Notes: generated by a model not told the origin, from the sequence alone. Shown: positions 2,835-44,498, counted from the first letter of the stretch. The stretch is 45,125 bases of DNA from a virus (IMGVR_UViG_2703718832_000003), one strand, 5' to 3'. A program made the numbers and translations.

Positions 2835-5741
2835 TTATGCCTGAGTACGCAGCGCTTCAAGGCGGCGCAGGTCGAAGTCGTTCAGTTCGTCGGTGTAGTC
2901 AGCAGTGATTGGCGCTGGCCATTCACCTGTGTCGAATCCGGTTGCGATATTGCGCATCGCTTTGCGGTACTCGAGCATACCCAGCTCCAGTAGTTCAGCG
3001 GATGCCTCGATGATGGCGATCCAGTGGTAGTTCTCGTCTTTGTTGACGAAAATCCAGAAGAACTGATCCAGCGCTGCGGTTTCGCAGTACATAGCCGCGC
3101 TCAGGTGATAATCACGTTCAATAATTTCCCGGTGTAGCCTGGCGCGCAGGCTTTCCTGCTTAACATTCCACATGCTGATGGTTTTCAGGTCTGCACCTAT
3201 ACGCACGCCATCCAGGTCGATCTCAAGGTCAGGGCGCACACGAACTTCCAAGCCCGTCTCCTCGTCAAAACCAAAGTAGCTCACCTCAACGGCTCGGCTA
3301 GGGTGGGTCAGCAGCATGCCGGCGGTCGGGTGTGCCAGAAGCGCTTTTTGAATATTCAGCGCGGTGCTCAGCTGCTGGCGGGTGACCAGCACTTTTCCTT
3401 CCGGGTTATCGCGCCAGGCATCCAGCAGTTCGTCGGCAAATACGGCATCTGGTTTGACTGCCTTCACGGCCTGGATCATGTCTGCTTTGGTACCGGACAC
3501 TTTCAGTGGTGCCGGTTTCTGTGCTTCCTGAGCCACAAGGTCAGGGTTGATGATTGCCAACTGCTCCAGCAGCGCGTCACGGCTGCCGCTGGTTTTAACC
3601 GGCGGCGGCAGGGTGGCGTTGTACTCTTTAATGCATGCCTTCATTGCCGTCGCCGTCTGCTTCTGGTCACCATCAATACGCTGGAAGTCAGCTGGCAGCG
3701 CCATATAGTTCTGTGCCGTTTCTTCCAGGTTAGCGCCAAGCGGAACCTGCGGCGGCAGGGTGGCGTTGTACTCTTCCAGTAACACCTTGATGTCGTCGGC
3801 AGACAGCAGCGCCGGCAGGCTGGCATTGTGCTCATCGATAAAGGCGCGCAGGGTCGCGGCCGTTGTGAATGCGCCTTCAGGGATCACCGGTTCAACGCTG
3901 AATTCTGCGTCCAGTAGTTCAGGCTGCAACGCCAGCGCATGCACCAAGTTGCCCATGTCCAGCACCGCTGAGCGCTCTTTGACGATGGTTTTCTCTACGT
4001 GGCGCGCATTGAAGTACATCAGCGAAACGCGCGCATCTTTCACCTGGGTTGAGCTGATGCCGTTGGCGGCGTGGTAAACCTCGTTTGGCAGCCCTTCATA
4101 GCGGCCTGGCTCGAAATAAGCGGGATAAACAACAGCTGGTTCGTCAGATTGCGCTTCTGGCTCGGTTTGTGCTGCAACTGGTTCGGTTTGGCTTACAGAA
4201 TCGCTATTTTTGGCGACAGAATCCGTATTCTGGTCTACATCGTCCTTCTGGCTGGTATCTGACTCTTCACCAGACTCCAGACTGCTTTCGCCTGGCTGTA
4301 CTTCATCACCAGCTTGTTTTTCATCACTGACAGTTTCTTGAACCTGCACATTGCTGGTGGTCTCCGTAGCCTTTTTCGTGCCATGAGTTGCTGAGTTCTG
4401 CAGCAAAGCCGTAACGTCGAATATTCCGTTGCCGACATTTTTAACCAGTTCTTGTTCGACTTTCTGCGGTTGTGCTGCCGCTTCCTCTGCGCGGCGGCGT
4501 GCTCCTTCTTCACGCACGCGTTGCAGGTTCTCTTCGTGAGTGCAGAAGGATTTGCGCGGAGACTCCTTACCTTCAGGTTGGGGAATTTCCTGTGCTGCGG
4601 GTTCAGCCTCATGCAACGGCAATAACTCGACCGCGGAATTGAACGCGGCTGTCATGGTCTGGTTAACAAATTCCAGGTGAGCGACAGGAGTTAAATGAAT
4701 ATTTTCCGGTGCGATACGTACCAGGTTAAAAATAGCCGTGCGGTTAACACCCAGAACGCCTGGCTGATTGCGCAGGATGTTGCTCCATGATTTCCATGGT
4801 TCTTCTTTTTTGGTCACGATTTCTTTAGCGCGACGAAGAATGCTGCCCGGGATCTCGAAGTGGTTGAAGTCCATAGGCAGAAGGGCACACGCAATCTCTA
4901 AATCGAGAGTGTCCAGTGTGTGGTGTGCGTCAGGTCCACGGTCAGTGACGTAACCGCCGTCGGCATTAGTGCCGGAATCAGTACGCTGCACACTACTGAT
5001 GCGATTACCGGCGGCCCATTCACGCGCCAGGATGCCACGGTCAATGTAATCAGTCGCCGCCCACATTCTGGTGAAACGGAGTACCAGCGCGAGTTCGTGA
5101 CGCTTGTCCTGGCTGAACACTTTGCGAATGGCATCGGTGTAGCGCCACAGGTCTTTGGTGTCGTAACCCTTCACTTCCGGGCAGTTCTCAGCAGCTAACA
5201 GCAAGTTCTGGACGTAACTGTTATCAGTGTCCATCTCCAGCGCGCCGATAGCTTCGTACTCTTCGTGGGTTACGTGGTGGCGCAGTTCGTCGGCGGTGAA
5301 CTGGGAAAGCAGTTGCTTACGAAACGGCATCTGCACTACCGGGTAGAGGGTTGAGTCGTCGTCGTGTTCGTCCAGCGTGATGCCAGCGGTTTCTGGCAGC
5401 GTTGACTCAGTAGTTATGTGACTATCAACGGTCTGAGCCGTTTTCTCGTCAGAGTTTTCAGCTGTGACTTTTGGCAGCCAGGTGCGCCCATCGTCCTGAA
5501 GCTCGTAGCGATCACACCAGGTAAAATCAACTTCACCTTCTTTCGGCAGGCCGTCGACAACTGGGAAATCAGTGCGAATCGGTTTGGCGTAGTCCTTACC
5601 CCGACCTGTTTCGATACCTGCATCTTCCAGCGCAACATCCAGCATCAGATTGGCGCGAGCCTCGGTTTTAGCAGTGAACCAGACCACTGCATCTTGCTTT
5701 CCGGATTTCTGAGTGGCTTTAACCACATTAAAGAATTCCAT
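2835..5741 (-). CDS. recE: RecE-like exonuclease VIII (long N-terminal region plus C-terminal nuclease domain)
   Basis: 968-aa ORF directly upstream of recT; long acidic/Ser-rich disordered middle region and conserved-looking C-terminal domain, as in Rac-type RecE. Contains an internal repeat encoding EYNATLPP twice. Confidence 0.65.
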   Translation of the reverse strand: MEFFNVVKATQKSGKQDAVVWFTAKTEARANLMLDVALEDAGIETGRGKDYAKPIRTDFPVVDGLPKEGEVDFTWCDRYELQDDGRTWLPKVTAENSDEKTAQTVDSHITTESTLPETAGITLDEHDDDSTLYPVVQMPFRKQLLSQFTADELRHHVTHEEYEAIGALEMDTDNSYVQNLLLAAENCPEVKGYDTKDLWRYTDAIRKVFSQDKRHELALVLRFTRMWAATDYIDRGILAREWAAGNRISSVQRTDSGTNADGGYVTDRGPDAHHTLDTLDLEIACALLPMDFNHFEIPGSILRRAKEIVTKKEEPWKSWSNILRNQPGVLGVNRTAIFNLVRIAPENIHLTPVAHLEFVNQTMTAAFNSAVELLPLHEAEPAAQEIPQPEGKESPRKSFCTHEENLQRVREEGARRRAEEAAAQPQKVEQELVKNVGNGIFDVTALLQNSATHGTKKATETTSNVQVQETVSDEKQAGDEVQPGESSLESGEESDTSQKDDVDQNTDSVAKNSDSVSQTEPVAAQTEPEAQSDEPAVVYPAYFEPGRYEGLPNEVYHAANGISSTQVKDARVSLMYFNARHVEKTIVKERSAVLDMGNLVHALALQPELLDAEFSVEPVIPEGAFTTAATLRAFIDEHNASLPALLSADDIKVLLEEYNATLPPQVPLGANLEETAQNYMALPADFQRIDGDQKQTATAMKACIKEYNATLPPPVKTSGSRDALLEQLAIINPDLVAQEAQKPAPLKVSGTKADMIQAVKAVKPDAVFADELLDAWRDNPEGKVLVTRQQLSTALNIQKALLAHPTAGMLLTHPSRAVEVSYFGFDEETGLEVRVRPDLEIDLDGVRIGADLKTISMWNVKQESLRARLHREIIERDYHLSAAMYCETAALDQFFWIFVNKDENYHWIAIIEASAELLELGMLEYRKAMRNIATGFDTGEWPAPITADYTDELNDFDLRRLEALRTQA

Positions 5742-5881
5742 GTGAGATCCTCATTTTTGGGTGTTAGAATCCCCGGACCATTGATAGCGCCCATTGGGTT
5801 AACTTTGGTTTTAATGTTGTTTCCGGTGTAACTTTGGTCGGTGAGGCCGGACATGGCGGGCCCACTTCGGTGGGCTTTCGC

Positions 5882-7302: not shown

Positions 7303-7491
7303 TTATGTCTCATCGACGCATGGAAGTGATTTCCAGTCGATATCGTTTTTTGCCGAATCCCACAGGCCTTTCTTTTTGTACTTTTCTGAGCATGGAATGC
7401 AGATGTTGTAAGGCCTGCCAACCATGTTTACAGATATTCTCTGCATCTCTTCAGATGCCAGAAAGTACCCACAGAATTGACACTTGTGCAT
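7303..7491 (-). CDS. Small Cys-rich (zinc-finger-like) protein
   Basis: 62-aa ORF MHKCQFCGY...CIPCSEKY with CxxC...CxxC; GGAGAG RBS upstream; first gene downstream of the putative PL region. Confidence 0.45.
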   Translation of the reverse strand: MHKCQFCGYFLASEEMQRISVNMVGRPYNICIPCSEKYKKKGLWDSAKNDIDWKSLPCVDET

Positions 7492-7910
7492 ACGTACTCT
7501 CCACTTAGTTACCCGCTGATGCGGGAGAAATGCTTTGGCGATGTGGTAGGTGGGAGACCCATTTCGACCCGATTCGGCCTACTTATCTTCGGCAATAGCT
7601 CCTCGGGCCTCGCCGCTTTACGTGCGACATATTCCCGTCCATGAACCCTTCACCACATCCCATAACATTCCCTGTATTGGTCAGCGCCAACTCCCTGCCA
7701 GTGTTGCCCGTTCTCACGCCGTTCTCGCTCTCGCGCGGGGATACTCTCTCACCGACCGGATCGCACCCGGTGATACAGCACGTTTACGTGTAGGGGTCTT
7801 AACAGGTCATTGACGCTGTAAATCTGCATGTTGTTAAAAAGCAGGCGACTTGCTGTCCGCCGCTGGCTAACTTCGCTCAGCTGTCGATGTTTCGTTTCGA
7901 TGGATTAAAG

Positions 7911-7949
7911 ATAACCTTAGTTATGAGTGATGGCAATAACCTAATTTAT
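7911..7949. promoter_or_regulatory. OL-like operator region: two ATAAC-N5-TTAT sites (7911-7924 and 7936-7949)
   Basis: Same 14-bp site architecture and roughly 25-bp centre spacing as the three sites between cI and cro; AT-rich promoter-like sequence around it; positioned like lambda PL/OL. Confidence 0.4.
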
Positions 7950-8030
7950 AATTATCATCACATAAGTTATAATGCACTGATAGCTAAATGAATTTATTTT
8001 TGTAAAAAATGTGGCGGGGGGGGATTTCTG

Positions 8031-8057
8031 GCAATAAAAAACCCCGCAATGCGGGGC
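8031..8057 (-). terminator. Intrinsic terminator ending the cI / rex-slot operon
   Basis: Minus-strand transcript folds as GCCCCGC-AUU-GCGGGG (stem 8042-8047 with 8051-8056) followed by a U-run (plus-strand A-run 8032-8041); lies 20 nt downstream of the 8076 stop. Confidence 0.6.
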
Positions 8058-8075
8058 TTTCAATCAAGGTGGGGT

Positions 8076-8765
8076 TTAGAAATAACCACTGTCTTTGCAG
8101 ACGGATAGCGTTGACAGGGTCTCGGCATCATCTCCGCCCATACCAATAAAGCCAGCGTGAGGTTTGCCATTGTTGATAAGCATGACCATGAAAGGAGTGT
8201 TTCCAGCATAGCCGCCATATGAGTTTTTGGAATTAACCAGGCCGCAGTAAGCGCCTTTCCCGTTGCTCACAAACTTAGAGTGCTTGAATCTGGCACTTTC
8301 TGGATCCTTCAATTGGTCTTTCACTGCTGCCTCAACAGCATTTATCTCCTGCTTCGTGAGAGACCTATATTTCCAGGCAGTTGCCGGTTTGTCGTTATCT
8401 GAATTGTTCGGCGATGGACTAACATCAATGCAGTTGGCCCATTGCTCAGTAATTCGAGCAATTCGGTCAGAGATAGCGAAATCAGTTTTAGAAAGGCTTG
8501 CCGCGAACACTTTTGTCTTGTCGTCAAGAAAAAGCATTCCATTTTTTTGTTCACTGATTATTGGTGAAATGATCACACCACCATTTGGACGTGTGGCTTT
8601 AAAGGATTTTCCATCAAATTCGACAGTGCCTTTTCCGCCAGGAATCATTGGAGCATTAGCTCCATTACTGATGTCCGACTTAGCGTAATCGCAGCTCAGG
8701 GTGCTAGAGCCGATTGCGTTCGTAGTTAAAGCCAGTAAAGATAATGCTATTAGTTCTAATTTCAT
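8076..8765 (-). CDS. Secreted/periplasmic protein of unknown function in the rex position (lysogenic-conversion or exclusion candidate)
   Basis: 229-aa ORF with an N-terminal signal peptide (MKLELIALSLLALTTNAIG...) and four Cys; starts 14 nt after the cI stop with a GAGGGAAGG RBS, so co-transcribed with cI; followed by a terminator; appears lower in G+C than its neighbours by eye. Confidence 0.6.
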   Translation of the reverse strand: MKLELIALSLLALTTNAIGSSTLSCDYAKSDISNGANAPMIPGGKGTVEFDGKSFKATRPNGGVIISPIISEQKNGMLFLDDKTKVFAASLSKTDFAISDRIARITEQWANCIDVSPSPNNSDNDKPATAWKYRSLTKQEINAVEAAVKDQLKDPESARFKHSKFVSNGKGAYCGLVNSKNSYGGYAGNTPFMVMLINNGKPHAGFIGMGGDDAETLSTLSVCKDSGYF

Positions 8766-8779
8766 CCCTTCCCTCTTGA

Positions 8780-9484
8780 TTACCAGATAGTAGATGTCCA
8801 GAACATGCGACCAATAATCTCTACGCTCTCGATATCCGCTTCTTCATCAGGATACTCTTCACTGTTGAAGCTGCGAATCACGATGCGGGTAGGACTCACA
8901 CGATAAATGGATTTTAGCCTTTTCCATCCGTCCTGGCTTATTGCATAAACCTTGCCATCAACGATCTTTTTGTCGTTCGTGTTGATGGCGACCGTCGTCC
9001 CTTCCGGGATCATGGGCTCCATGCTATTTCCTGATGCCGGGAAGCACAGCACGCTATCTTTCTGGGCTCCCACCTTACGAAGGGTAGACTTCGCAAAACG
9101 AAGTTTGAATCCGTTATAGTCATCTTCCAAGCAGGAACCATCACCACACGCAAGTTCTATGTCTTTCAGATATGGCACTTCGACCTCGTCATCTGGCAGA
9201 TCTGTTTTGCTATCCCAAGCGTCAACTTTACCCCATTCCGATTCTGGTGGGATAGCGGAGTCCTTGCGTCCTTCGTCCTGCATTGAGCCTATGCCCGAAC
9301 TGAGCCATTCCGGACGCACGTTCAATGCATGAGCAAGCTCAACCATCTTACGGCTGCCTGTGGTTTTGCCTGATGTCATTTTCTGAATTGCAGGTTGAGA
9401 TATGCCGACTTTCTCAGCCAGCTGCCCTTGGGATATGCCTGCGGCTCTCATAGCCGCGTTGAGTCGATCTGCGAATGTTTTCAT
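8780..9484 (-). CDS. cI: CI-type prophage repressor (N-terminal HTH plus C-terminal S24 LexA-like autopeptidase)
   Basis: 234-aa ORF; N-terminal HTH (GISQGQLAEKVGISQPAIQKM); C-terminal S24 motif FPASGNSMEPMIPEG with downstream Lys; divergent from cro across an operator region. Confidence 0.9.
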   Translation of the reverse strand: MKTFADRLNAAMRAAGISQGQLAEKVGISQPAIQKMTSGKTTGSRKMVELAHALNVRPEWLSSGIGSMQDEGRKDSAIPPESEWGKVDAWDSKTDLPDDEVEVPYLKDIELACGDGSCLEDDYNGFKLRFAKSTLRKVGAQKDSVLCFPASGNSMEPMIPEGTTVAINTNDKKIVDGKVYAISQDGWKRLKSIYRVSPTRIVIRSFNSEEYPDEEADIESVEIIGRMFWTSTIW

Positions 9485-9495
9485 AGCGCCAATAT

Positions 9496-9558
9496 ATAAC
9501 TCAGGTTATGCAGAGTAAAATAACAAAGCTTATGGACAATGGTCATAACTTAGGTTAT
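9496..9558. promoter_or_regulatory. OR-like operator/promoter region: three ATAAC-N5-TTAT sites (9496-9509, 9520-9533, 9545-9558)
   Basis: Three near-identical 14-bp sites (ATAACTCAGGTTAT, ATAACAAAGCTTAT, ATAACTTAGGTTAT) with centres 24-25 bp apart in the 110-bp cI-cro intergenic region; tripartite architecture as in lambda OR1-3. Confidence 0.55.
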
Positions 9559-9594
9559 CTTTTCATTAATCCAGTAATCGGATAGGTAAAATCC

Positions 9595-9822
9595 ATGAAC
9601 AAAGTTATTCAACGAGCTTTAGAAATCGTTGGCAGCCAGAAGCGACTCGCAGATATTTGCGGCGTTAGCCAGCCAGCGGTTCACAAGTGGCTTAACGGTG
9701 GTTCCGTATCTCCGGAAAAAGTAACAGCCATCGTAAACGCTACTGGTGGCGAGATTAAGGCACACGAAATTCGACCTGATCTTCCCGACCTGTTTCCACA
9801 CCCAGAGAACCATGCCGCTTAA
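9595..9822 (+). CDS. cro: Cro-like HTH regulator
   Basis: 75-aa ORF divergent from cI; HTH segment QKRLADICGVSQPAVHKWLNG. Confidence 0.7.
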   Translation: MNKVIQRALEIVGSQKRLADICGVSQPAVHKWLNGGSVSPEKVTAIVNATGGEIKAHEIRPDLPDLFPHPENHAA

Positions 9823-9851
9823 CGGCGGCCCTAACCACGAAAGGGAAAGCA

Positions 9852-10394
9852 ATGCATTCACTTGCGTATCAACACAATACCGGAATACACCCGGGAGCGA
9901 TGATAAACCGCGCTCAACCTAAGGCGGCGCCAGACCACGAAAAGATCCGCGATGCGGTCCGGGCATGGTCGTCGGCGCTGGACAATCAGGACGTCGTTTC
10001 GGCGCTGATCATCAACGAATACCGGGAGCAGGGCGGGAACGCCATCAGCTTTCCGGAAGACATCAGCCGGGCGCGGCAGAAGCTATTTCGCTTTCTGGAT
10101 AACCGCTTCGACTCTGAGCAGTACCGCGAGAACGTGCGCCAGCTGACGCCCACAATCATGGCCGTTTTGCCGCTGGAGTATCGCCATCGACTTCTTCCAG
10201 AGGACAGTTTTATGTCCCGCTTAGCTCGACTTGAGAAAGAAACGAGCGAGGCGAAAGTGGCCGTTGCGATGAACGCCCCGCGTCACCAGAAGCTCAAGGA
10301 ACTCAGTGAGGGGATTGTAGAGATGTTCCGTGTCGACCCGGATCTGACCGCGCCGCTGATGGCTATGGTCACTTCGATGTTGGGGGTTATGTGA
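9852..10394 (+). CDS. YdaT-like / CII-position regulatory protein (hypothetical)
   Basis: 180-aa ORF immediately after cro, in the position of lambda cII / Rac ydaT; family assignment is from memory of sequence pattern only. Confidence 0.35.
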   Translation: MHSLAYQHNTGIHPGAMINRAQPKAAPDHEKIRDAVRAWSSALDNQDVVSALIINEYREQGGNAISFPEDISRARQKLFRFLDNRFDSEQYRENVRQLTPTIMAVLPLEYRHRLLPEDSFMSRLARLEKETSEAKVAVAMNAPRHQKLKELSEGIVEMFRVDPDLTAPLMAMVTSMLGVM

Positions 10395-15046: not shown

Positions 15047-15840
15047 ATGAGCACTATTACCAAAGAACGTATTGAATTGTTCATTAAAAATCCGCTTGAA
15101 AACGTGCTTACCCGTGGTGAACAAATGGAACTGGCACGGATTGCGCTGGCATCGCTCGAAGCGGAGCCGGTGGCGTGGTTGCTGTCAGGAGGCGGGGAAA
15201 AAAACAACGTCAGCTTCGATAGTGGCAATGCTTATGCCGACCCGCTGCGAGAAGTAACGCCGCTTTACGCCTCCCCGCCAGCGCCGGTATCTGTGCCTGA
15301 TTTGAAACCAGTTGGCTTTTTATTCGTGTCCGATGATGGCTCAGTTGCTTATTCTCCTGCTGGCTGGCCCATGAAAGGATTTAATCTAATCGGTCCGATT
15401 TACGGTGATGTGAACGCCTGCCGCGCCGCCATGCTTCAGTCCGATGGTACCCTCACCAATGAAGGTACCATGCAGTTGTCCGGTAATTCCGAACAAATCG
15501 AACCCGTAAGTAATCGTGATGAGTTGCCGTTGGACTATCTGCAAGGTCACAAAGACGGCCTTGAATGGGCGGCGCAACTGGCAGAGGCCAATCATCCGCA
15601 AACAGGTGACTGGTTATACGACGACCCAATCGATCTTGCCAGGGCGATTCGCAAAGGTCCGGATATGCCTACTGTTCAGGCTGGCAACTCTCCGGTAACT
15701 CCGGATGGTTGGATTCCGGTAAGCAAAAGGATGCCGGAGCCTTATGAATACGTTCTTGTAACTGATGGTTTTGATGGCTGTGAGGTTATGCGTGTTAATA
15801 CAGATGGCTACTGGGGGCCGACAAAGAGTTTATATCCAGG
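15047..15840 (+). CDS. Hypothetical protein, 3' end lost in the N-run
   Basis: ORF starts at 15047 and runs into the N-run at 15841; true length and C-terminus unknown. Confidence 0.4.
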
Positions 15841-16051
15841 TNNNNNNNNNNNNNNNNNNNNNNNNNNNNNNNNNNNNNNNNNNNNNNNNNNNNNNNNNNN
15901 NNNNNNNNNNNNNNNNNNNNNNNNNNNNNNNNNNNNNNNNNNNNNNNNNNNNNNNNNNNNNNNNNNNNNNNNNNNNNNNNNNNNNNNNNNNNNNNNNNNN
16001 NNNNNNNNNNNNNNNNNNNNNNNNNNNNNNNNNNNNNNNNNNNNNNNNNNN
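15841..16051. other. Run of 211 N (assembly gap or masked sequence)
   Basis: Continuous n characters in the sequence; not biological. Confidence 0.95.
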
Positions 16052-16360
16052 ACGTTACAGAAATACCAGCCTTCCCTGAAGTACTAATTGCAAATGTATT
16101 TTGTGAATCATCCCGGCGGGTAGAGATTTATAAACCAGCATCAAGACACCAATGGCCTCTTCGAAAGCCTTTCTCTTATGTTGATTTTCCATAATCAACC
16201 AGCCATAATTTAACCGTCGTCGGAGTTGAACGCCCGACGGTGACTTCTGCGCATTTAAGGGGACTTAAATGCGACCACAATCTGAACTCCTCACCTTGTC
16301 ACAGATGCAGAAATGCACCTGCGATTTTCTGTATTCTGCGTTACCTCTCGGAGGTGGCGT

Positions 16361-16798
16361 ATGAAACAGCCTGTTTTCTACCTCCGCGACGAACGCGTTC
16401 GCGATAACCTCATCGACTACATCAGGAAGCTGCCTGTTAACGACGCTCTGCCGCTCGTGGTGAAGTTTTCTGAGGCTGACCGCACTCTCGCCCAAAACGA
16501 CCTCTTCCACGCTCTCTGTGGCGATACAGCGAAGCAATTGCAATGGGCTGGCAAGTCGCGCGACCTCGCTTCATGGAAAGTCCTGTATGTCTCAGGCCAT
16601 GCCATTGCCACCGGTAAGCCTGGTGAAGTGGTGCCGGGTCTGGAAGGGGAGTTCTGCGCCATCCGGGAAAGCACTGCGAAGATGGGCATCCGTCGCATGA
16701 CCAGTCTCATCGAATACAGCCAGGCATTTGCTGTGCAAAACGGCGTGCAACTCCGTGAAGTTCGCTACTCAGGTGATTACTTCGGGAGGGTTGCGTAA
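16361..16798 (+). CDS. ninB: NinB (Orf-family recombination mediator)
   Basis: ATG at 16361 with GGAGGTGG RBS, in frame with track ORF 16313-16798; sequence MKQPVFYLRDERVRDN...LAQNDLFHALCGD parallels lambda NinB. Confidence 0.75.
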   Translation: MKQPVFYLRDERVRDNLIDYIRKLPVNDALPLVVKFSEADRTLAQNDLFHALCGDTAKQLQWAGKSRDLASWKVLYVSGHAIATGKPGEVVPGLEGEFCAIRESTAKMGIRRMTSLIEYSQAFAVQNGVQLREVRYSGDYFGRVA

Positions 16799-42100: not shown

Positions 42101-42116
42101 ATTGCCTGGAGAAAAT

Positions 42117-43685
42117 ATGCTTTATAACACCGGCACCATCGCCATTAATGGAAATACCGCCACCGGGACGGGTACAAACTGGACGGAACCGGCCAGCCAG
42201 GTCCGCGCTGGCCAGACGATTATCGTGATGTCTAACCCGGTGCAGCTGTTTCATATTTCATCCGTGAACAGCGCCACGTCAATGACGGTTACGCCTGCCG
42301 CTTCCCCGGCGCTGAGCCGCCAGAAATACGCCATTCTGGTGTCAGACATTATCTCCGTGGACGGACTGGCCCAGGCAATGTCGCAGCTCATCAAAGAGTA
42401 TGACGAGAACATTGGCGCGTGGGAGACGTTCGCCACTACCTCAGCAAACCAGACCATCACCGTTACCATCAACGGAACCTCCGTTAATATTCCAAGTATT
42501 GGCGCGCTTGCCAGAAAGGGGTCCAACAGCGATATCACCGAGCTGAAAGGGCTCACTACTGCGCTGTCTATTGCACAGGGCGGGACTGGGGCAAAGACCG
42601 AAGCTGACGCTCGCGCAAACCTCGGTTTAGGATACGGCACCAAAGCGGGCACTGTAGCCCAGGGAAATGATGAAAGGCTGAACACCGTCAATGGTAAATC
42701 AGGAGGAAATGTTACCGGCAGTTTGATGGTAACTCAGGGTAGCAGCATTGGCGTATCTACTCAGGAAGGTGGTGATAAGACTGTAAAGCTATACAACATT
42801 ACAGGGGATGGGACTGTCGGAGGTTATGTAAACGCCGTGGGAGGTGCCTGGTATAACGGGAACTGGTCTCTTGGCGGCGTTCGGGGGAGTGGGACTAATT
42901 TAGACAGAGCGCAGTTAAATGTTAATAGCGGAACTGGTACCGCGGGTTCATTTTTATTTTACCACGATGAGAGATTCAAATCATCTTCGTGTGGAGCTGA
43001 TGGGGCTGGTTATGGTGGCTCATGGTTAGACATTAACACATGGCAAAGAAATATCTCTTTTTTCCGAGGTAACGTATCAGTTAATAATGATGCAGGGTTT
43101 ATTCCCTTTGCCCGTTGGCATAGTCAATGCAGTGGTGGATATTCTTCAACAGTAGGGCTTGGTTCTATAGCTACCGGGCCTAGTTCGTGGGCGGATGTAG
43201 CAATAATAACGCTCGGGGATGGTGGTTCTTCCGGGAAACGTTTATTTCAATTCACGACAGCAAACGGTGATATATACGCTAACGCTGGTGGAAATATTTC
43301 CGGTAACTATATTTTCCAGAAGCAGCCTAACTGTGACATTACGCTGAAGCACGATATTAAATATGATGATGGTTATCAGTCATACGAGAATATCAAAAAA
43401 TTTCTGCCAGCAACTTACGTCTACAATGATGACCCTCGTGAGAGAGTTCGCCGAGGCGTAATTGCTCAGGACGCGATGAAGATTGACAGTGAGTACGTCA
43501 AACTGGTACCTGCATCACCGGCGTTCGACAGTGAAGGCAACAGGATTGATGCTGATGATACGTTGGCGCTTGATACGAACGTCATTATGCTTGATACCGT
43601 GCTGGCCCTGAATTACGTCATCAAGAAGCTGGAGGCTACACAGAACGAGCTGGAGGAGATTAAGCAAAAAATAGCGGCATCATGA
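42117..43685 (+). CDS. Side tail fiber protein with invertible C-terminal part and S74-like intramolecular chaperone
   Basis: ATG at 42117 (track ORF begins at TTG 42102); N-terminus MLYNTGTIAINGNTATGTGTNWT...; C-terminus ...DAMKIDSEYVKLV...LALNYVIKKLEA...; a crossover site lies inside the gene. Confidence 0.75.
   Translation: MLYNTGTIAINGNTATGTGTNWTEPASQVRAGQTIIVMSNPVQLFHISSVNSATSMTVTPAASPALSRQKYAILVSDIISVDGLAQAMSQLIKEYDENIGAWETFATTSANQTITVTINGTSVNIPSIGALARKGSNSDITELKGLTTALSIAQGGTGAKTEADARANLGLGYGTKAGTVAQGNDERLNTVNGKSGGNVTGSLMVTQGSSIGVSTQEGGDKTVKLYNITGDGTVGGYVNAVGGAWYNGNWSLGGVRGSGTNLDRAQLNVNSGTGTAGSFLFYHDERFKSSSCGADGAGYGGSWLDINTWQRNISFFRGNVSVNNDAGFIPFARWHSQCSGGYSSTVGLGSIATGPSSWADVAIITLGDGGSSGKRLFQFTTANGDIYANAGGNISGNYIFQKQPNCDITLKHDIKYDDGYQSYENIKKFLPATYVYNDDPRERVRRGVIAQDAMKIDSEYVKLVPASPAFDSEGNRIDADDTLALDTNVIMLDTVLALNYVIKKLEATQNELEEIKQKIAAS
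42610..42635. promoter_or_regulatory. Left inversion crossover site (gix/hix-like), inside the tail fiber gene
   Basis: CTCGCGCAAACC-TC-GGTTTAGGATAC; the AAACC-NN-GGTTT core and GTATCC half-site match the Gin/Hin-family site pattern; core dinucleotide TC at 42622-42623. Confidence 0.5.
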
Positions 43686-44498
43686 ATCCTGAGCATTCAA
43701 CTGCAGCCCGTTCCGGAAAATTACGGGCTGCAAATTATTCAGCTTCCTTGTTCCAGTTTTTCAACCTTACTCGTCAAATTATCGACCCTAACCATTAGGG
43801 CCAGAATTGCCTCATGGTGCAAAGCTGCAGCAACCCCGTAAGTATCGACAGTTTTCACATCAGGAATAATAGTTCCGTCCTCCAGAGTAATATCATAGCC
43901 ACCTTTAACAGCTTCGGGAAATACTTGCTCAACGTCCTGTGCAATAAAGCCGTAACCAGTGGTTTCATTGTCTATACGCTCCCAAAAGCAGCCTTTAATG
44001 GCTTTCATCTTTGTGAGAGGATCGGATATGCGCGCGATGTCTTTTTTTATACGCGCATCTGAGAGTGATACCCATTGACCACCAGTGCCACGACCATCTG
44101 GGTAAAACATAAATGATGCTGCTGCCCCTCCAGATTCTGCCACCACATTTAACTGAACACGATCAAGTGGGGTAGAGCCGCTACGTATTGCACCAAACGC
44201 CCATGAACCGCTATACCACTTACCAATTATCTGATTAACATAATTCCCCTGAGATGGATCAGTGGTCGTATTATTCATCTCAATGGAGTTATCACCGCCA
44301 CTTCCCTTTCTGACCCCTAAACCACCACCGGCATTTGTATGCCAGTCAGTTGCTCCGCCGCCAACACCGTTGATTGTCACAGCAGATGAAATCGTTCCTC
44401 CTGATTTTCCGTTCACCGTACCCATGCGTGAATCATCCCCGGCCGCCACCGTTCCCGCCGCCGTTCCAACGTTCCTGGTGGCGCTGTTTCCCAAACCG
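42623..44498. mobile_element. Invertible tail fiber segment (G/C-segment-like host-range switch), about 1.9 kb
   Basis: Bounded by inverted gix-like sites with identical TC core when the right site is reverse-complemented; contains the 3' part of the plus-strand fiber gene and a startless inverted alternative; invertase gene immediately adjacent. Confidence 0.5.
43739..44494 (-). CDS. Alternative tail fiber C-terminal segment (no own start codon; expressed only after inversion)
   Basis: Open frame continues upstream to a stop at 44504-44506 with no ATG; first codons NVGLGN run through the right crossover site in the same frame relation as the left site; homologous to the plus-strand fiber (TVNGKSGG) and ends in a chaperone-like segment. 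Confidence 0.6.
   Translation of the reverse strand: MGNSATRNVGTAAGTVAAGDDSRMGTVNGKSGGTISSAVTINGVGGGATDWHTNAGGGLGVRKGSGGDNSIEMNNTTTDPSQGNYVNQIIGKWYSGSWAFGAIRSGSTPLDRVQLNVVAESGGAAASFMFYPDGRGTGGQWVSLSDARIKKDIARISDPLTKMKAIKGCFWERIDNETTGYGFIAQDVEQVFPEAVKGGYDITLEDGTIIPDVKTVDTYGVAAALHHEAILALMVRVDNLTSKVEKLEQGS

What the first reader, a model, noticed from the sequence alone, without database searches (positions are those of the whole stretch)
8031..8779. Lysogen-expressed secreted protein of unknown function in the rex slot, co-transcribed with the CI repressor
The 229-aa signal-peptide protein (8076-8765) starts 14 nt after the cI stop behind its own strong RBS and is followed by an intrinsic terminator, with the OL-like operators beyond. 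That is exactly the position of rexA/rexB in lambda, a slot that in lambdoid phages typically carries exclusion or defence cargo expressed in the lysogen. The protein has no motif I recognise, four cysteines, and appears lower in G+C than its neighbours, suggesting a horizontally acquired moron. A periplasmic rather than cytoplasmic product would be an unusual type for this slot.
Basis: partly seen in the sequence, partly recalled or inferred. Interest (0 to 1): 0.7.

Follow-up and report, generated by a model that had tools for sequence, protein, structure and literature searches.

The report
Repressor-linked secreted prophage moron protein
A lambda-like prophage carries, directly behind its repressor gene, a mobile add-on gene for an exported two-domain protein of unknown function whose relatives nearly always sit just before phage tape-measure genes, which makes it a good but unproven candidate for a new periplasmic blocker of phage DNA entry.

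Summary
A 229-aa ORF (8076-8765, minus strand) starts 14 nt after the cI stop behind a strong Shine-Dalgarno sequence. It ends at a stable intrinsic terminator and lies between cI and three OL operators, which is lambda's rex slot. G+C is 44.5% against 52% for the window. dN/dS against a 94%-identical homologue is 0.05, so it is a real, constrained gene.

The product has a Sec signal peptide and no lipobox. An eight-stranded beta-barrel domain (Cys25-Cys112 invariant) is joined by a linker to an alpha+beta domain carrying the motif LKDPxSAxF...CGxVNxKNSYGGYxG. Neither domain matches Pfam, NCBIfam, PADLOC or a solved structure.

The C-domain family is very large (about 15,600 clusters at 50% identity) and often phage-borne. 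In two phages it is fused to peptidoglycan-binding domains. In a sister prophage with the same cI, the C-domain is replaced as a cassette by an unrelated all-beta domain.

Only one close lineage has the gene behind cI. More distant two-domain relatives (22 of 24) lie directly upstream of the tape measure gene and keep the same terminator. That is the slot of the HK97 gp15 exclusion moron.

Best reading: a lysogen-expressed periplasmic entry-blocking factor. This function is inferred, not shown.

The parts
8076..8765 (-). Moron gene: 229-aa precursor of an exported two-domain protein
   Evidence: ORF. dN/dS 0.047 against L002. Homologues in Enterobacteriaceae prophages.
8709..8765 (-). Sec signal peptide (residues 1-19, cleavage AIG|S); not a lipobox
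   Evidence: Single hydrophobic core LIALSLLAL. The -3/-1 rule is met at 19/20. Homologues have AxA at the aligned position, and the residues before Cys25 are incompatible with a lipobox.
8424..8708 (-). N-terminal module (residues 20-114): eight/nine-stranded beta-barrel with invariant Cys25 and Cys112
8373..8423 (-). Low-confidence Ser/Pro/Asn/Asp-rich linker (residues 115-131)
   Evidence: pLDDT about 51-76. Variable in A1.
8079..8372 (-). C-terminal module (residues 132-229): alpha+beta roll with motif LKDPxSAxF...CGxVNxKNSYGGYxG; Cys174 and Cys223 nearly invariant
8057..8430 (-). Exchangeable cassette: replaced by an unrelated C-domain in a sister prophage with the same cI and the same N-domain
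   Evidence: blastn against L024: homology runs 9900->8431, breaks, and resumes 8056->7840. The type-B domain is two helices plus an all-beta fold.
8766..8779 (-). 14-nt cI-moron spacer with Shine-Dalgarno GAGGGAAGGG
   Evidence: Sequence. The 14-nt gap is conserved in 16 of 16 close IMG/VR copies.
8030..8065 (-). Intrinsic terminator that travels with the gene
   Evidence: -17.3 kcal/mol, z -3.07. The hairpin plus TTTTTTATTGCC is invariant between copies in the cI slot and copies in the tape-measure slot.
8780..9484 (-). cI repressor (HTH_3 + Peptidase_S24), upstream cistron of the presumed operon
   Evidence: 94-100% identical cI precedes every close homologue.
9491..9561 (.). OR region: three operators, pRM-like (-) and pR-like (+) promoters. 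The pRM -10 ends 6 nt before the cI ATG, which implies a leaderless cI mRNA.
7908..7970 (.). OL region: three operators overlapping a pL-like promoter (-), downstream of the moron terminator
   Evidence: The adjoining 7508-7908 is 99.8% identical to the phi80 OL/nutL region.

Best explanation
This is a moron, meaning a self-contained gene-plus-terminator unit. In one prophage lineage it has been captured between cI and OL.

Expression (inferred). In a lysogen it would be transcribed from pRM together with cI, and from pRE during establishment. It would be translated from its own strong SD, and transcription would stop at its terminator before reaching OL/pL.

Product (predicted). The protein is exported by Sec, cleaved after residue 19, and stabilised by two likely disulfides (Cys25-Cys112 and Cys174-Cys223). 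It would be a soluble periplasmic protein with a beta-barrel module and an exchangeable C-terminal module.

Function (inferred). The most likely role is superinfection exclusion at the entry step. The protein would sit in the periplasm, near the peptidoglycan layer, and interfere with the trans-periplasmic DNA-delivery stage of long-tailed phages, which involves the tape measure protein and tail tip. The constant barrel would serve as a common scaffold or docking part and the swappable C-domain as the specificity or effector part.

What is shown: the gene anatomy, purifying selection, modularity, cassette swap, genomic associations and predicted folds.
What is inferred: lysogenic transcription, export, disulfides and the anti-entry function.

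My confidence in the anatomy and moron part is about 0.85. My confidence in the exclusion function is about 0.35-0.4.
For: Anatomy.

Real, constrained gene: dN/dS 0.047.

Export: signal peptide without lipobox. Cys pairs are invariant or nearly invariant within each module.

Mobility:
- Low G+C.
- 16 of 16 close homologues lie 14 nt behind the same cI. 22 of 24 diverged two-domain homologues lie 9-104 nt upstream of a giant ORF. Sampled giant ORFs of this kind match tape measure families (TMP_3 in 12 of 17, plus HK97_TLTM, TMP_2, TMP_4 and the lambda C-terminal domain).
- Independent look-ups give the same picture.
- The terminator is conserved in both slots.

Precedent: the chaperone-to-tape-measure slot is where the HK97 gp15 moron sits. 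gp15 blocks genome injection, and escape from it depends on the tail region (PMC3594210). Exclusion proteins acting on long-tailed phages have been linked to the tape measure protein (PMC10883804).

C-domain relatives:
- ES18 gp20 ('possible moron') and proteins of Klebsiella phage 5 and Paracoccus Pkon1 lie next to tape measure genes.
- Others lie in a repressor operon of a Mu-like prophage or next to an integrase.
- Fusions to SPOR and PG_binding_1 place the domain at the cell wall.

Diversification: non-homologous C-domain cassette exchange inside an otherwise 94%-identical immunity region fits diversification of specificity.

A soluble periplasmic exclusion factor has a precedent in T4 Spackle (PMC7677548).
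Against: - No functional or expression data exist. No paper mentions the protein.
- There is no hit in PADLOC.
- Point substitutions show strong purifying selection rather than an arms-race signature.
- I see no relationship between the protein's type and the neighbouring tape measure family. Type-A proteins precede TMP_2 and TMP_3 proteins. The window's own TMP_2/lambda-type tape measure protein is unrelated to that of L007.
- sigma-70-like promoters upstream of the tape-measure-slot copies were found in only one of four loci scanned. Lysogenic expression of those copies is therefore not established.
- Some C-domain copies lie beside lysis genes.
- The strongly conserved polar motif of the C-domain suggests a conserved ligand rather than a rapidly changing phage target.
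Confidence: 0.4

Rival explanations
1. Lysogenic-conversion envelope factor unrelated to phage entry. The periplasmic protein would bind peptidoglycan or inhibit incoming cell-wall hydrolases or toxins, such as host lysozyme, type VI amidase or muramidase effectors, or colicin-type bacteriocins. That would raise the fitness of the lysogen.
For: - C-domain relatives are fused to SPOR and PG_binding_1.
- The invariant polar motif suggests a conserved ligand.
- The C-domain family is very large and spread across Proteobacteria.
- Eight Enterobacteriaceae genomes hold the barrel domain in a protein whose surroundings show no obvious prophage genes, judged by ORF sizes only.
Against: - No hit to Pfam MliC/PliC or any inhibitor family at E <= 1.
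- This reading does not explain the tight and repeated adjacency to tape measure genes.
Confidence: 0.25
2. A lytic-cycle accessory protein. In most relatives the gene would be expressed late with the tail operon, for example to stop progeny from injecting into doomed cells or debris, or to tune lysis. Its placement behind cI in this lineage would be incidental.
For: - Most relatives lie inside the late tail operon.
- No consistent sigma-70-like promoter was found upstream of those copies.
- One C-domain copy lies between Mor and the holin/transglycosylase genes of a Mu-like phage.
Against: - A conserved intrinsic terminator directly before the essential tape measure gene makes sense mainly if the gene is transcribed on its own in the prophage.
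- In the window and in 16 of 16 close relatives the gene is fixed 14 nt behind cI, an arrangement under purifying selection.
- Other copies sit in a repressor operon or next to an integrase.
Confidence: 0.15
3. A secreted polymorphic toxin or bacteriocin-like protein, with a conserved N-terminal delivery domain and variable C-terminal toxin domains.
For: Constant N-domain, conserved junction (TEQWxxC) and non-homologous C-terminal cassettes.
Against: - No immunity gene follows. The terminator, or the tape measure gene, comes directly after the stop codon.
- The C-domains are small, have no toxin family hit, and also occur on their own as lipoproteins.
- There is no secretion machinery beyond Sec.
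Confidence: 0.03
4. A chance ORF or decaying remnant with no function.
For: No family annotation anywhere.
Against: - dN/dS 0.047, with 58 synonymous against 13 non-synonymous changes.
- Confident two-domain AF2 model, pLDDT 86.
- Full-length homologues occur in at least ten enterobacterial genera.
- Conserved SD, spacer and terminator.
Confidence: 0.02

Closest known systems
HK97 gp15 moron (superinfection exclusion; Cumby et al. 2012, reviewed in PMC3594210)
   Same: [quoted passage not shown]
   Different: gp15 is a small YebO-like inner-membrane protein. This protein is a 210-residue soluble exported two-domain protein with no transmembrane segment and no sequence relationship. In this window the gene is behind cI, not in the tail operon. 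Exclusion is not demonstrated here.
Lambda rexA/rexB
   Same: The position between cI and OL, and presumed co-transcription with cI from pRM in the lysogen.
   Different: RexA/RexB is a cytoplasmic sensor plus inner-membrane channel that causes abortive infection. There is no sequence hit (Pfam, PADLOC). The present product is a single exported protein.
T4 Spackle (PMC7677548)
   Same: A small, Sec-exported, soluble periplasmic phage protein that blocks superinfection at the cell-wall penetration step.
   Different: Spackle is helical, is expressed early by a lytic phage, and inhibits the gp5 tail lysozyme. The present protein has a beta-barrel plus an alpha+beta roll, is prophage-borne, and has an unknown target. 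No hydrolase domain was detected in the neighbouring tape measure proteins.
Lipoprotein exclusion factors: TP-J34 Ltp, T5 Llp, phi80/N15 Cor
   Same: Extracytoplasmic products of (pro)phages that prevent entry. Ltp exclusion is overcome by changes in the tape measure protein (PMC10883804). Many stand-alone relatives of the C-domain are lipoproteins.
   Different: The window protein has no lipobox. Llp and Cor act by blocking the outer-membrane receptor FhuA. No sequence or fold match to them was detected.
ES18 gp20 and PHROG families 2578, 14768 and 2320 (all 'unknown function')
   Same: Direct sequence relatives. ES18 gp20 carries the C-domain, lies immediately before the tape measure gene with its own terminator, and was annotated 'possible moron'.
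   Different: gp20 lacks the barrel domain. None of these families has an assigned function.
MliC/PliC/PhiA periplasmic lysozyme inhibitors
   Different: The resemblance is at fold level only and is no better than to many unrelated barrels. There is no Pfam MliC hit.

Membership tests
Moron (Juhala/Hendrix sense) | Extra gene present between conserved neighbours in some relatives and absent or different in others | tested here: met
   phi80 has protein 40A and HK639 has three other ORFs behind cI. Only 1 of 5,426 complete E. coli genomes carries this gene. The window's own G/T-to-tape-measure junction lacks it, while other prophages have it there.
Moron (Juhala/Hendrix sense) | Own transcription terminator | tested here: met
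   -17.3 kcal/mol hairpin plus U-run, conserved with the gene in both slots.
Moron (Juhala/Hendrix sense) | Own promoter active in the prophage | tested here: inconclusive
   In the window no promoter-like site lies between pRM and the gene, so it appears to borrow pRM. Upstream of the tape-measure-slot copies a consensus promoter was found in one of four loci.
Moron (Juhala/Hendrix sense) | Base composition differing from the neighbours | tested here: met
   44.5% against 52.0% G+C, 2.4th percentile.
Lambda RexA/RexB | Sequence homology to RexA or RexB | tested here: not met
   No Pfam hit at E <= 1 other than a sub-threshold DUF6456 match. No PADLOC hit.
Lambda RexA/RexB | Location between cI and OL, downstream of cI on the same strand | tested here: met
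HK97 gp15 / YebO-type exclusion protein | Small inner-membrane protein with a transmembrane helix | tested here: not met
   The only hydrophobic segment is the cleavable signal peptide. The highest 19-residue hydropathy beyond residue 22 is 0.83. The AF2 model shows two globular domains.
HK97 gp15 / YebO-type exclusion protein | Blocks genome injection of specific siphophages | not testable with these tools
   Needs plating-efficiency and DNA-entry assays.
Bacterial lipoprotein exclusion factors (Cor, Llp, Ltp) | Lipobox [LVI][ASTVI][GAS]C at the end of the signal peptide | tested here: not met
   The residues before Cys25 are T-L-S. Homologues have N, E, H, Q, I or V at position -1. Cys25 co-varies with Cys112 as an invariant pair.
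MliC/PliC lysozyme inhibitor family (PF09864) | Match to the family profile | tested here: not met
Known anti-phage defence systems (PADLOC-DB 2.0) | Match to any component model | tested here: not met
   0 families at E <= 1.
Sec-exported periplasmic protein | N-terminal signal peptide with a signal peptidase I site and no further membrane anchor | tested here: met
   Hydropathy and the -3/-1 rule. AxA sites in homologues. No dedicated predictor was available and export has not been shown experimentally.

The most novel reading that the evidence does not exclude
The protein represents an unrecognised, widespread class of modular periplasmic anti-entry factors of temperate phages. A constant beta-barrel module would carry interchangeable effector domains, one of which belongs to a roughly 15,000-cluster, unmodelled, cell-wall-associated domain family. 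These factors would intercept the tape-measure-mediated trans-periplasmic DNA conduit of competing siphophages. Specificity would be re-programmed by cassette exchange rather than by point mutation.
Probability: 0.25. Interest if true: 0.75.

Novelty: new variant of a known kind. Interest (0 to 1): 0.55.

Why it matters
Genes expressed from prophages shape which phages can infect a lysogen, and the entry step is the least understood layer of that protection in Gram-negative bacteria.

- This locus gives a compact, testable candidate: one exported protein made of two separable modules.
- A natural domain-swap variant sits in an otherwise near-identical immunity region and can serve as a built-in control.
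- There is a clear genomic association with tape measure genes.
- The work also flags a very large domain family (LKDPxSAxF...NSYGGYxG) that has no Pfam or NCBIfam model and no solved structure. The family is repeatedly phage-borne and is sometimes fused to peptidoglycan-binding domains.

If the exclusion role is confirmed, it would add a soluble periplasmic mechanism to the membrane-protein and lipoprotein mechanisms known for siphophages. If it is refuted, the locus is still a clean example of a moron moving between the tail operon and the immunity operon with its terminator attached.

Tried and rejected
- The word-index homology search with the N-domain alone returned a single fragment and was uninformative.
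- The AlphaFold-database fold library was not available. Foldseek against the PDB gave nothing below 1e-3. BFVD gave only uncharacterised small phage (lipo)proteins.
- Profile searches against PDB sequences gave only a spurious 'DPxSARF' match to mitoribosomal protein mL64.
- Pfam scans of proteins with alternative C-domains, and of multi-copy or long C-domain proteins, gave nothing significant.
- I tested whether the protein type tracks the neighbouring tape measure family. It does not. The window's tape measure protein and that of L007 are unrelated, and type-A proteins precede both TMP_2 and TMP_3 proteins.
- My automatic terminator flag was too strict, because the minimum-energy fold pairs the U-run. 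The hairpins were therefore read by eye from the printed sequences: 15 of 18 distinct intergenic regions have one.
- The lipoprotein reading was rejected because there is no lipobox.
- The polymorphic-toxin reading was rejected because there is no immunity gene.
- The antisense ORF at 8263-8688 (+) was disregarded. The substitution pattern fits the minus-strand frame.
- A literature search for the RefSeq accession WP_016245456 found nothing.

Full report
**1. What is in the sequence**

The window is a complete lambda-like siphovirus prophage. It encodes:
- an integrase at 1-1194;
- RecT and an Exo VIII-type RecE;
- a cI/cro switch;
- a DnaB-type helicase;
- a lambda-type tail: chaperone G, a tape measure protein with TMP_2 plus the lambda C-terminal domain, and J.

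On the minus strand, the CI-type repressor (8780-9484; HTH_3 and Peptidase_S24) is followed after 14 nt (TCAAGAGGGAAGGG) by the 229-aa ORF at 8076-8765.

The ORF is followed by the hairpin AAAGCCCCGCAUUGCGGGGUUUUUUAUU. It folds at -17.3 kcal/mol with z = -3.07, and none of 200 shuffles folds as well.

Beyond the terminator lie three operators (7911-7970). They match the three between cI and cro (9496-9558), with consensus ATAACnnnnGTTAT. They overlap a pL-like promoter. No promoter-like site lies between pRM (9519->9491) and the ORF on the minus strand.

The pRM -10 hexamer ends 6 nt before the cI ATG. The cI message would therefore be leaderless, as in lambda, whereas the downstream gene has a strong SD. 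This is my inference.

G+C is 44.5% against 52.0% for the window, the 2.4th percentile.

**2. It is a real gene**

The closest distinct homologue is P0001 (94% identical) at loci L002/L003. Against it the gene shows 13 non-synonymous and 58 synonymous differences, dN/dS 0.047. That is as constrained as the adjacent cI, at 0.065.

The exact protein or near-identical copies occur in IMG/VR viral contigs. Among 5,426 complete E. coli genomes, only one carries the gene: strain ET729, in a prophage beside kch. Named homologues come from Enterobacter, Citrobacter, Hafnia, Klebsiella/Raoultella, Leclercia, Cronobacter and Brenneria. Among 185,579 species representatives, only 11 loci were found, all in Enterobacteriaceae.

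**3. The protein**

The N-terminus has a single hydrophobic core (LIALSLLAL) and an A-I-G|S site at residues 19/20. This site aligns with classical A-x-A sites in homologues. There is no other hydrophobic segment.

The residues before the first cysteine are incompatible with a lipobox. That cysteine (Cys25) is invariant together with Cys112.

AlphaFold2 gives a confident model (mean pLDDT 86) with three parts:
- an all-beta domain, residues 21-114;
- a disordered Ser/Pro/Asn/Asp-rich linker;
- an alpha+beta domain, residues 132-225.

Cys174 and Cys223 are nearly invariant in the second domain. Two conserved cysteine pairs, each within one domain, fit an oxidising compartment. The disulfides themselves are inferred, because I could not measure distances in the model.

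No curated family matches: Pfam, NCBIfam, PADLOC and PDB sequences all gave nothing. PHROGs splits the protein into two unknown-function groups. Residues 17-117 match phrog_2578 and phrog_14768. Residues 126-201 match phrog_2320 and others.

- The second domain is a helix-on-sheet roll of the cystatin/NTF2/PepSY type. Hits include cystatins, DUF4467, amine-oxidase D2/D3, TraE and YpeB, with Z between 5.5 and 6.4.

**4. Two independent modules and a cassette swap**

Alignment of homologues shows a constant N-module ending in TEQWxxC, joined to at least three unrelated C-terminal parts.

The clearest case is P0013 (locus L024). It lies behind the same cI, and the DNA is 94% identical to the window from 9900 down to 8431, which is codon 112. 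Homology then disappears and resumes at 8056, inside the terminator. The C-domain coding segment has therefore been exchanged as a cassette between two fixed boundaries.

The replacement domain is predicted as two helices plus a ten-stranded beta domain, while the N-module keeps the same strand order. The exchange is thus non-homologous.

The barrel module also occurs at the C-terminus of a different secreted protein in eight enterobacterial genomes. That protein has a signal peptide, a KNCKKGIPCGNSCI motif and a Ser-rich linker. It is always followed by a 165-aa secreted ORF.

**5. The C-domain family**

A profile of the C-domain (motif LKDPxSAxF...CGxVNxKNSYGGYxG) finds 15,579 clusters at 50% identity with E <= 1e-3, and 7,451 with E <= 1e-10. 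Most are 120-150-residue proteins with a signal peptide or lipobox. They come from many Proteobacteria and are named only 'hypothetical', 'lipoprotein' or 'secreted protein'. Ten diverse members have no Pfam or NCBIfam match.

In Pseudomonas phage AUS531phi the domain is fused to a SPOR domain. In Paracoccus phage Pkon1 it is fused to PG_binding_1. Both fusions place it at the peptidoglycan layer.

**6. Genomic homes**

Among the 80 best IMG/VR loci:
- All 16 close homologues (82-100% identity) lie exactly 14 nt behind a cI that is 94-100% identical to the window's.
- Of the 24 more distant two-domain homologues (43-65%), 22 are followed within 9-104 nt by a co-directional ORF of 743-1,151 aa. 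The other two reach the contig end.
- Of 37 C-domain-only loci, 11 have the same arrangement.

I scanned 17 giant ORFs from that survey: 15 lying just downstream of a homologue and 2 lying just upstream of a C-domain-only copy. They match tape measure families: TMP_3 in 12 of 17, plus HK97_TLTM, TMP_2, TMP_4 and the lambda C-terminal domain.

Independent look-ups agree:
- P0006, P0020 and P0044 lie directly upstream of tape measure genes.
- Three GTDB loci show the same arrangement.
- ES18 gp20 is annotated 'possible moron'.
- Klebsiella phage 5 and Pkon1 have copies next to tape measure genes.

These counts include near-duplicate contigs. There are 18 distinct gene-to-tape-measure spacers, and 15 of them contain a GC-rich hairpin followed by a T-run (read by eye).

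The hairpin and the following TTTTTTATTGCC are invariant between copies in the cI slot and copies in the tape-measure slot. The gene and its terminator therefore move as one unit.

Other C-domain copies lie:
- two genes after an S24 repressor in a Mu-like prophage;
- between Mor and the holin of another Mu-like phage;
- next to an integrase.

phi80 and HK639 carry unrelated cargo in their own cI-to-pL slots. The slot is thus a general cargo site.

**7. How it most likely works**

The anatomy shows a moron captured in the immunity operon. It follows that the protein is made whenever cI is made and is exported to the periplasm.

For function I rely on association. The chaperone-to-tape-measure slot is where the first described moron, HK97 gene 15, sits. 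Its product blocks genome injection in a way that depends on the tail region (PMC3594210). Exclusion proteins directed at long-tailed phages have been linked to the tape measure protein (PMC10883804). A soluble periplasmic exclusion factor also exists in T4 Spackle (PMC7677548).

The evidence that fits a periplasmic anti-entry factor is:
- a prophage-expressed protein located at the cell wall;
- repeated placement beside the tape measure gene;
- an effector domain exchanged by cassette swap.

I put this at about 0.35-0.4.

Several points count against it:
- There are no experimental data and no defence-database hit.
- Fold matches are generic.
- Selection on substitutions is purifying.
- The protein type does not track the tape measure family.
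- Promoter evidence for the tail-operon copies is weak.

Rival explanations:
- The main rival (0.25) is a cell-wall or fitness factor, such as a hydrolase inhibitor or peptidoglycan binder. The SPOR and PG_binding fusions and the inhibitor-like folds support it.
- A late-cycle role (0.15) is possible for the tail-operon copies, but it fits the fixed cI linkage poorly.
- The toxin reading (0.03) and the non-functional ORF reading (0.02) are unlikely.

**8. Comparison with what is known, and novelty**

By position the gene is the equivalent of rexAB, but it fails the homology test. By family habit it behaves like the HK97 gp15 moron, but it is not a membrane protein. By compartment it resembles Spackle, but it has different folds. 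It is not a lipoprotein like Cor, Llp or Ltp.

The kind of element is familiar: a moron encoding an envelope protein, probably protective. The protein itself is not. Both modules lack curated models and solved structures, and the modular cassette design has no characterised counterpart that I could find. I rate it a new variant of a known kind.

Interest is 0.55. It is a well-defined and unusually testable candidate that also exposes a very large unannotated domain family, but its function remains inferred.

Noticed in passing
window 15400-16400 (ORF 15047-16087, + strand): A sharp AT-rich island (G+C 29-31% in 600-nt windows, the lowest in the window) overlaps a 346-aa ORF in the nin-like region. 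The ORF has no Pfam hit at E <= 1e-4 and no PADLOC hit. It is a second candidate for acquired cargo.
   Followed up: partly
window 7303-7908: 7508-7908 is 99.8% identical to the phi80 OL/nutL region and about 95% identical to many Stx-converting phages. The phi80 N gene that follows in phi80 is absent. In its place is a 62-aa ORF (7303-7491, minus strand) with two CxxC pairs (phrog_19863, unknown function).
   Followed up: partly
L034-L041 (for example L035:4722-5288 and 5312-5809): Eight enterobacterial genomes (Enterobacter, Kosakonia, Kluyvera, Buttiauxella, Scandinavium, Citrobacter, Pseudenterobacter) encode a secreted protein of 186-199 aa as called from the first possible start codon. 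It consists of a signal peptide, a KNCKKGIPCGNSCI cysteine motif, a Ser-rich linker and the same beta-barrel module at the C-terminus. In seven of the eight it is followed within about 20 nt by a conserved 165-aa secreted ORF; the eighth (L040) has a 148-aa ORF further downstream. The surroundings differ between genomes.
   Followed up: partly
window 42102-44494: Two convergent ORFs (42102-43685 on the plus strand, 43739-44494 on the minus strand) both carry the Peptidase_S74 intramolecular-chaperone domain typical of tail fibres and spikes. This suggests alternative or duplicated fibre genes at the right end of the prophage.
   Followed up: no
window 9484-9519: The pRM-like -10 hexamer ends at 9491 and the cI ATG is at 9484. 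This implies a leaderless cI mRNA, as in lambda, while the downstream cargo gene has a strong SD.
   Followed up: no
window 9595-10394: The cro-position gene is a YdaS-type HTH protein (PF15943, 8.9e-17). The gene in the cII position is YdaT-like (PF06254, 1.5e-25). This is the YdaS/YdaT pair of Rac-type prophages rather than lambda cro/cII.
   Followed up: no
L031:4354-4869; L007, L014 and L018 moron islands: The chaperone-to-tape-measure gap in Klebsiella, Atlantibacter and related prophages is a multi-gene cargo island. It holds P22 immI-like Arc/antirepressor modules, Rha, KilA-N and a DUF4823 lipoprotein. The homologue of the studied gene is usually the last gene before the tape measure gene.
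   Followed up: partly
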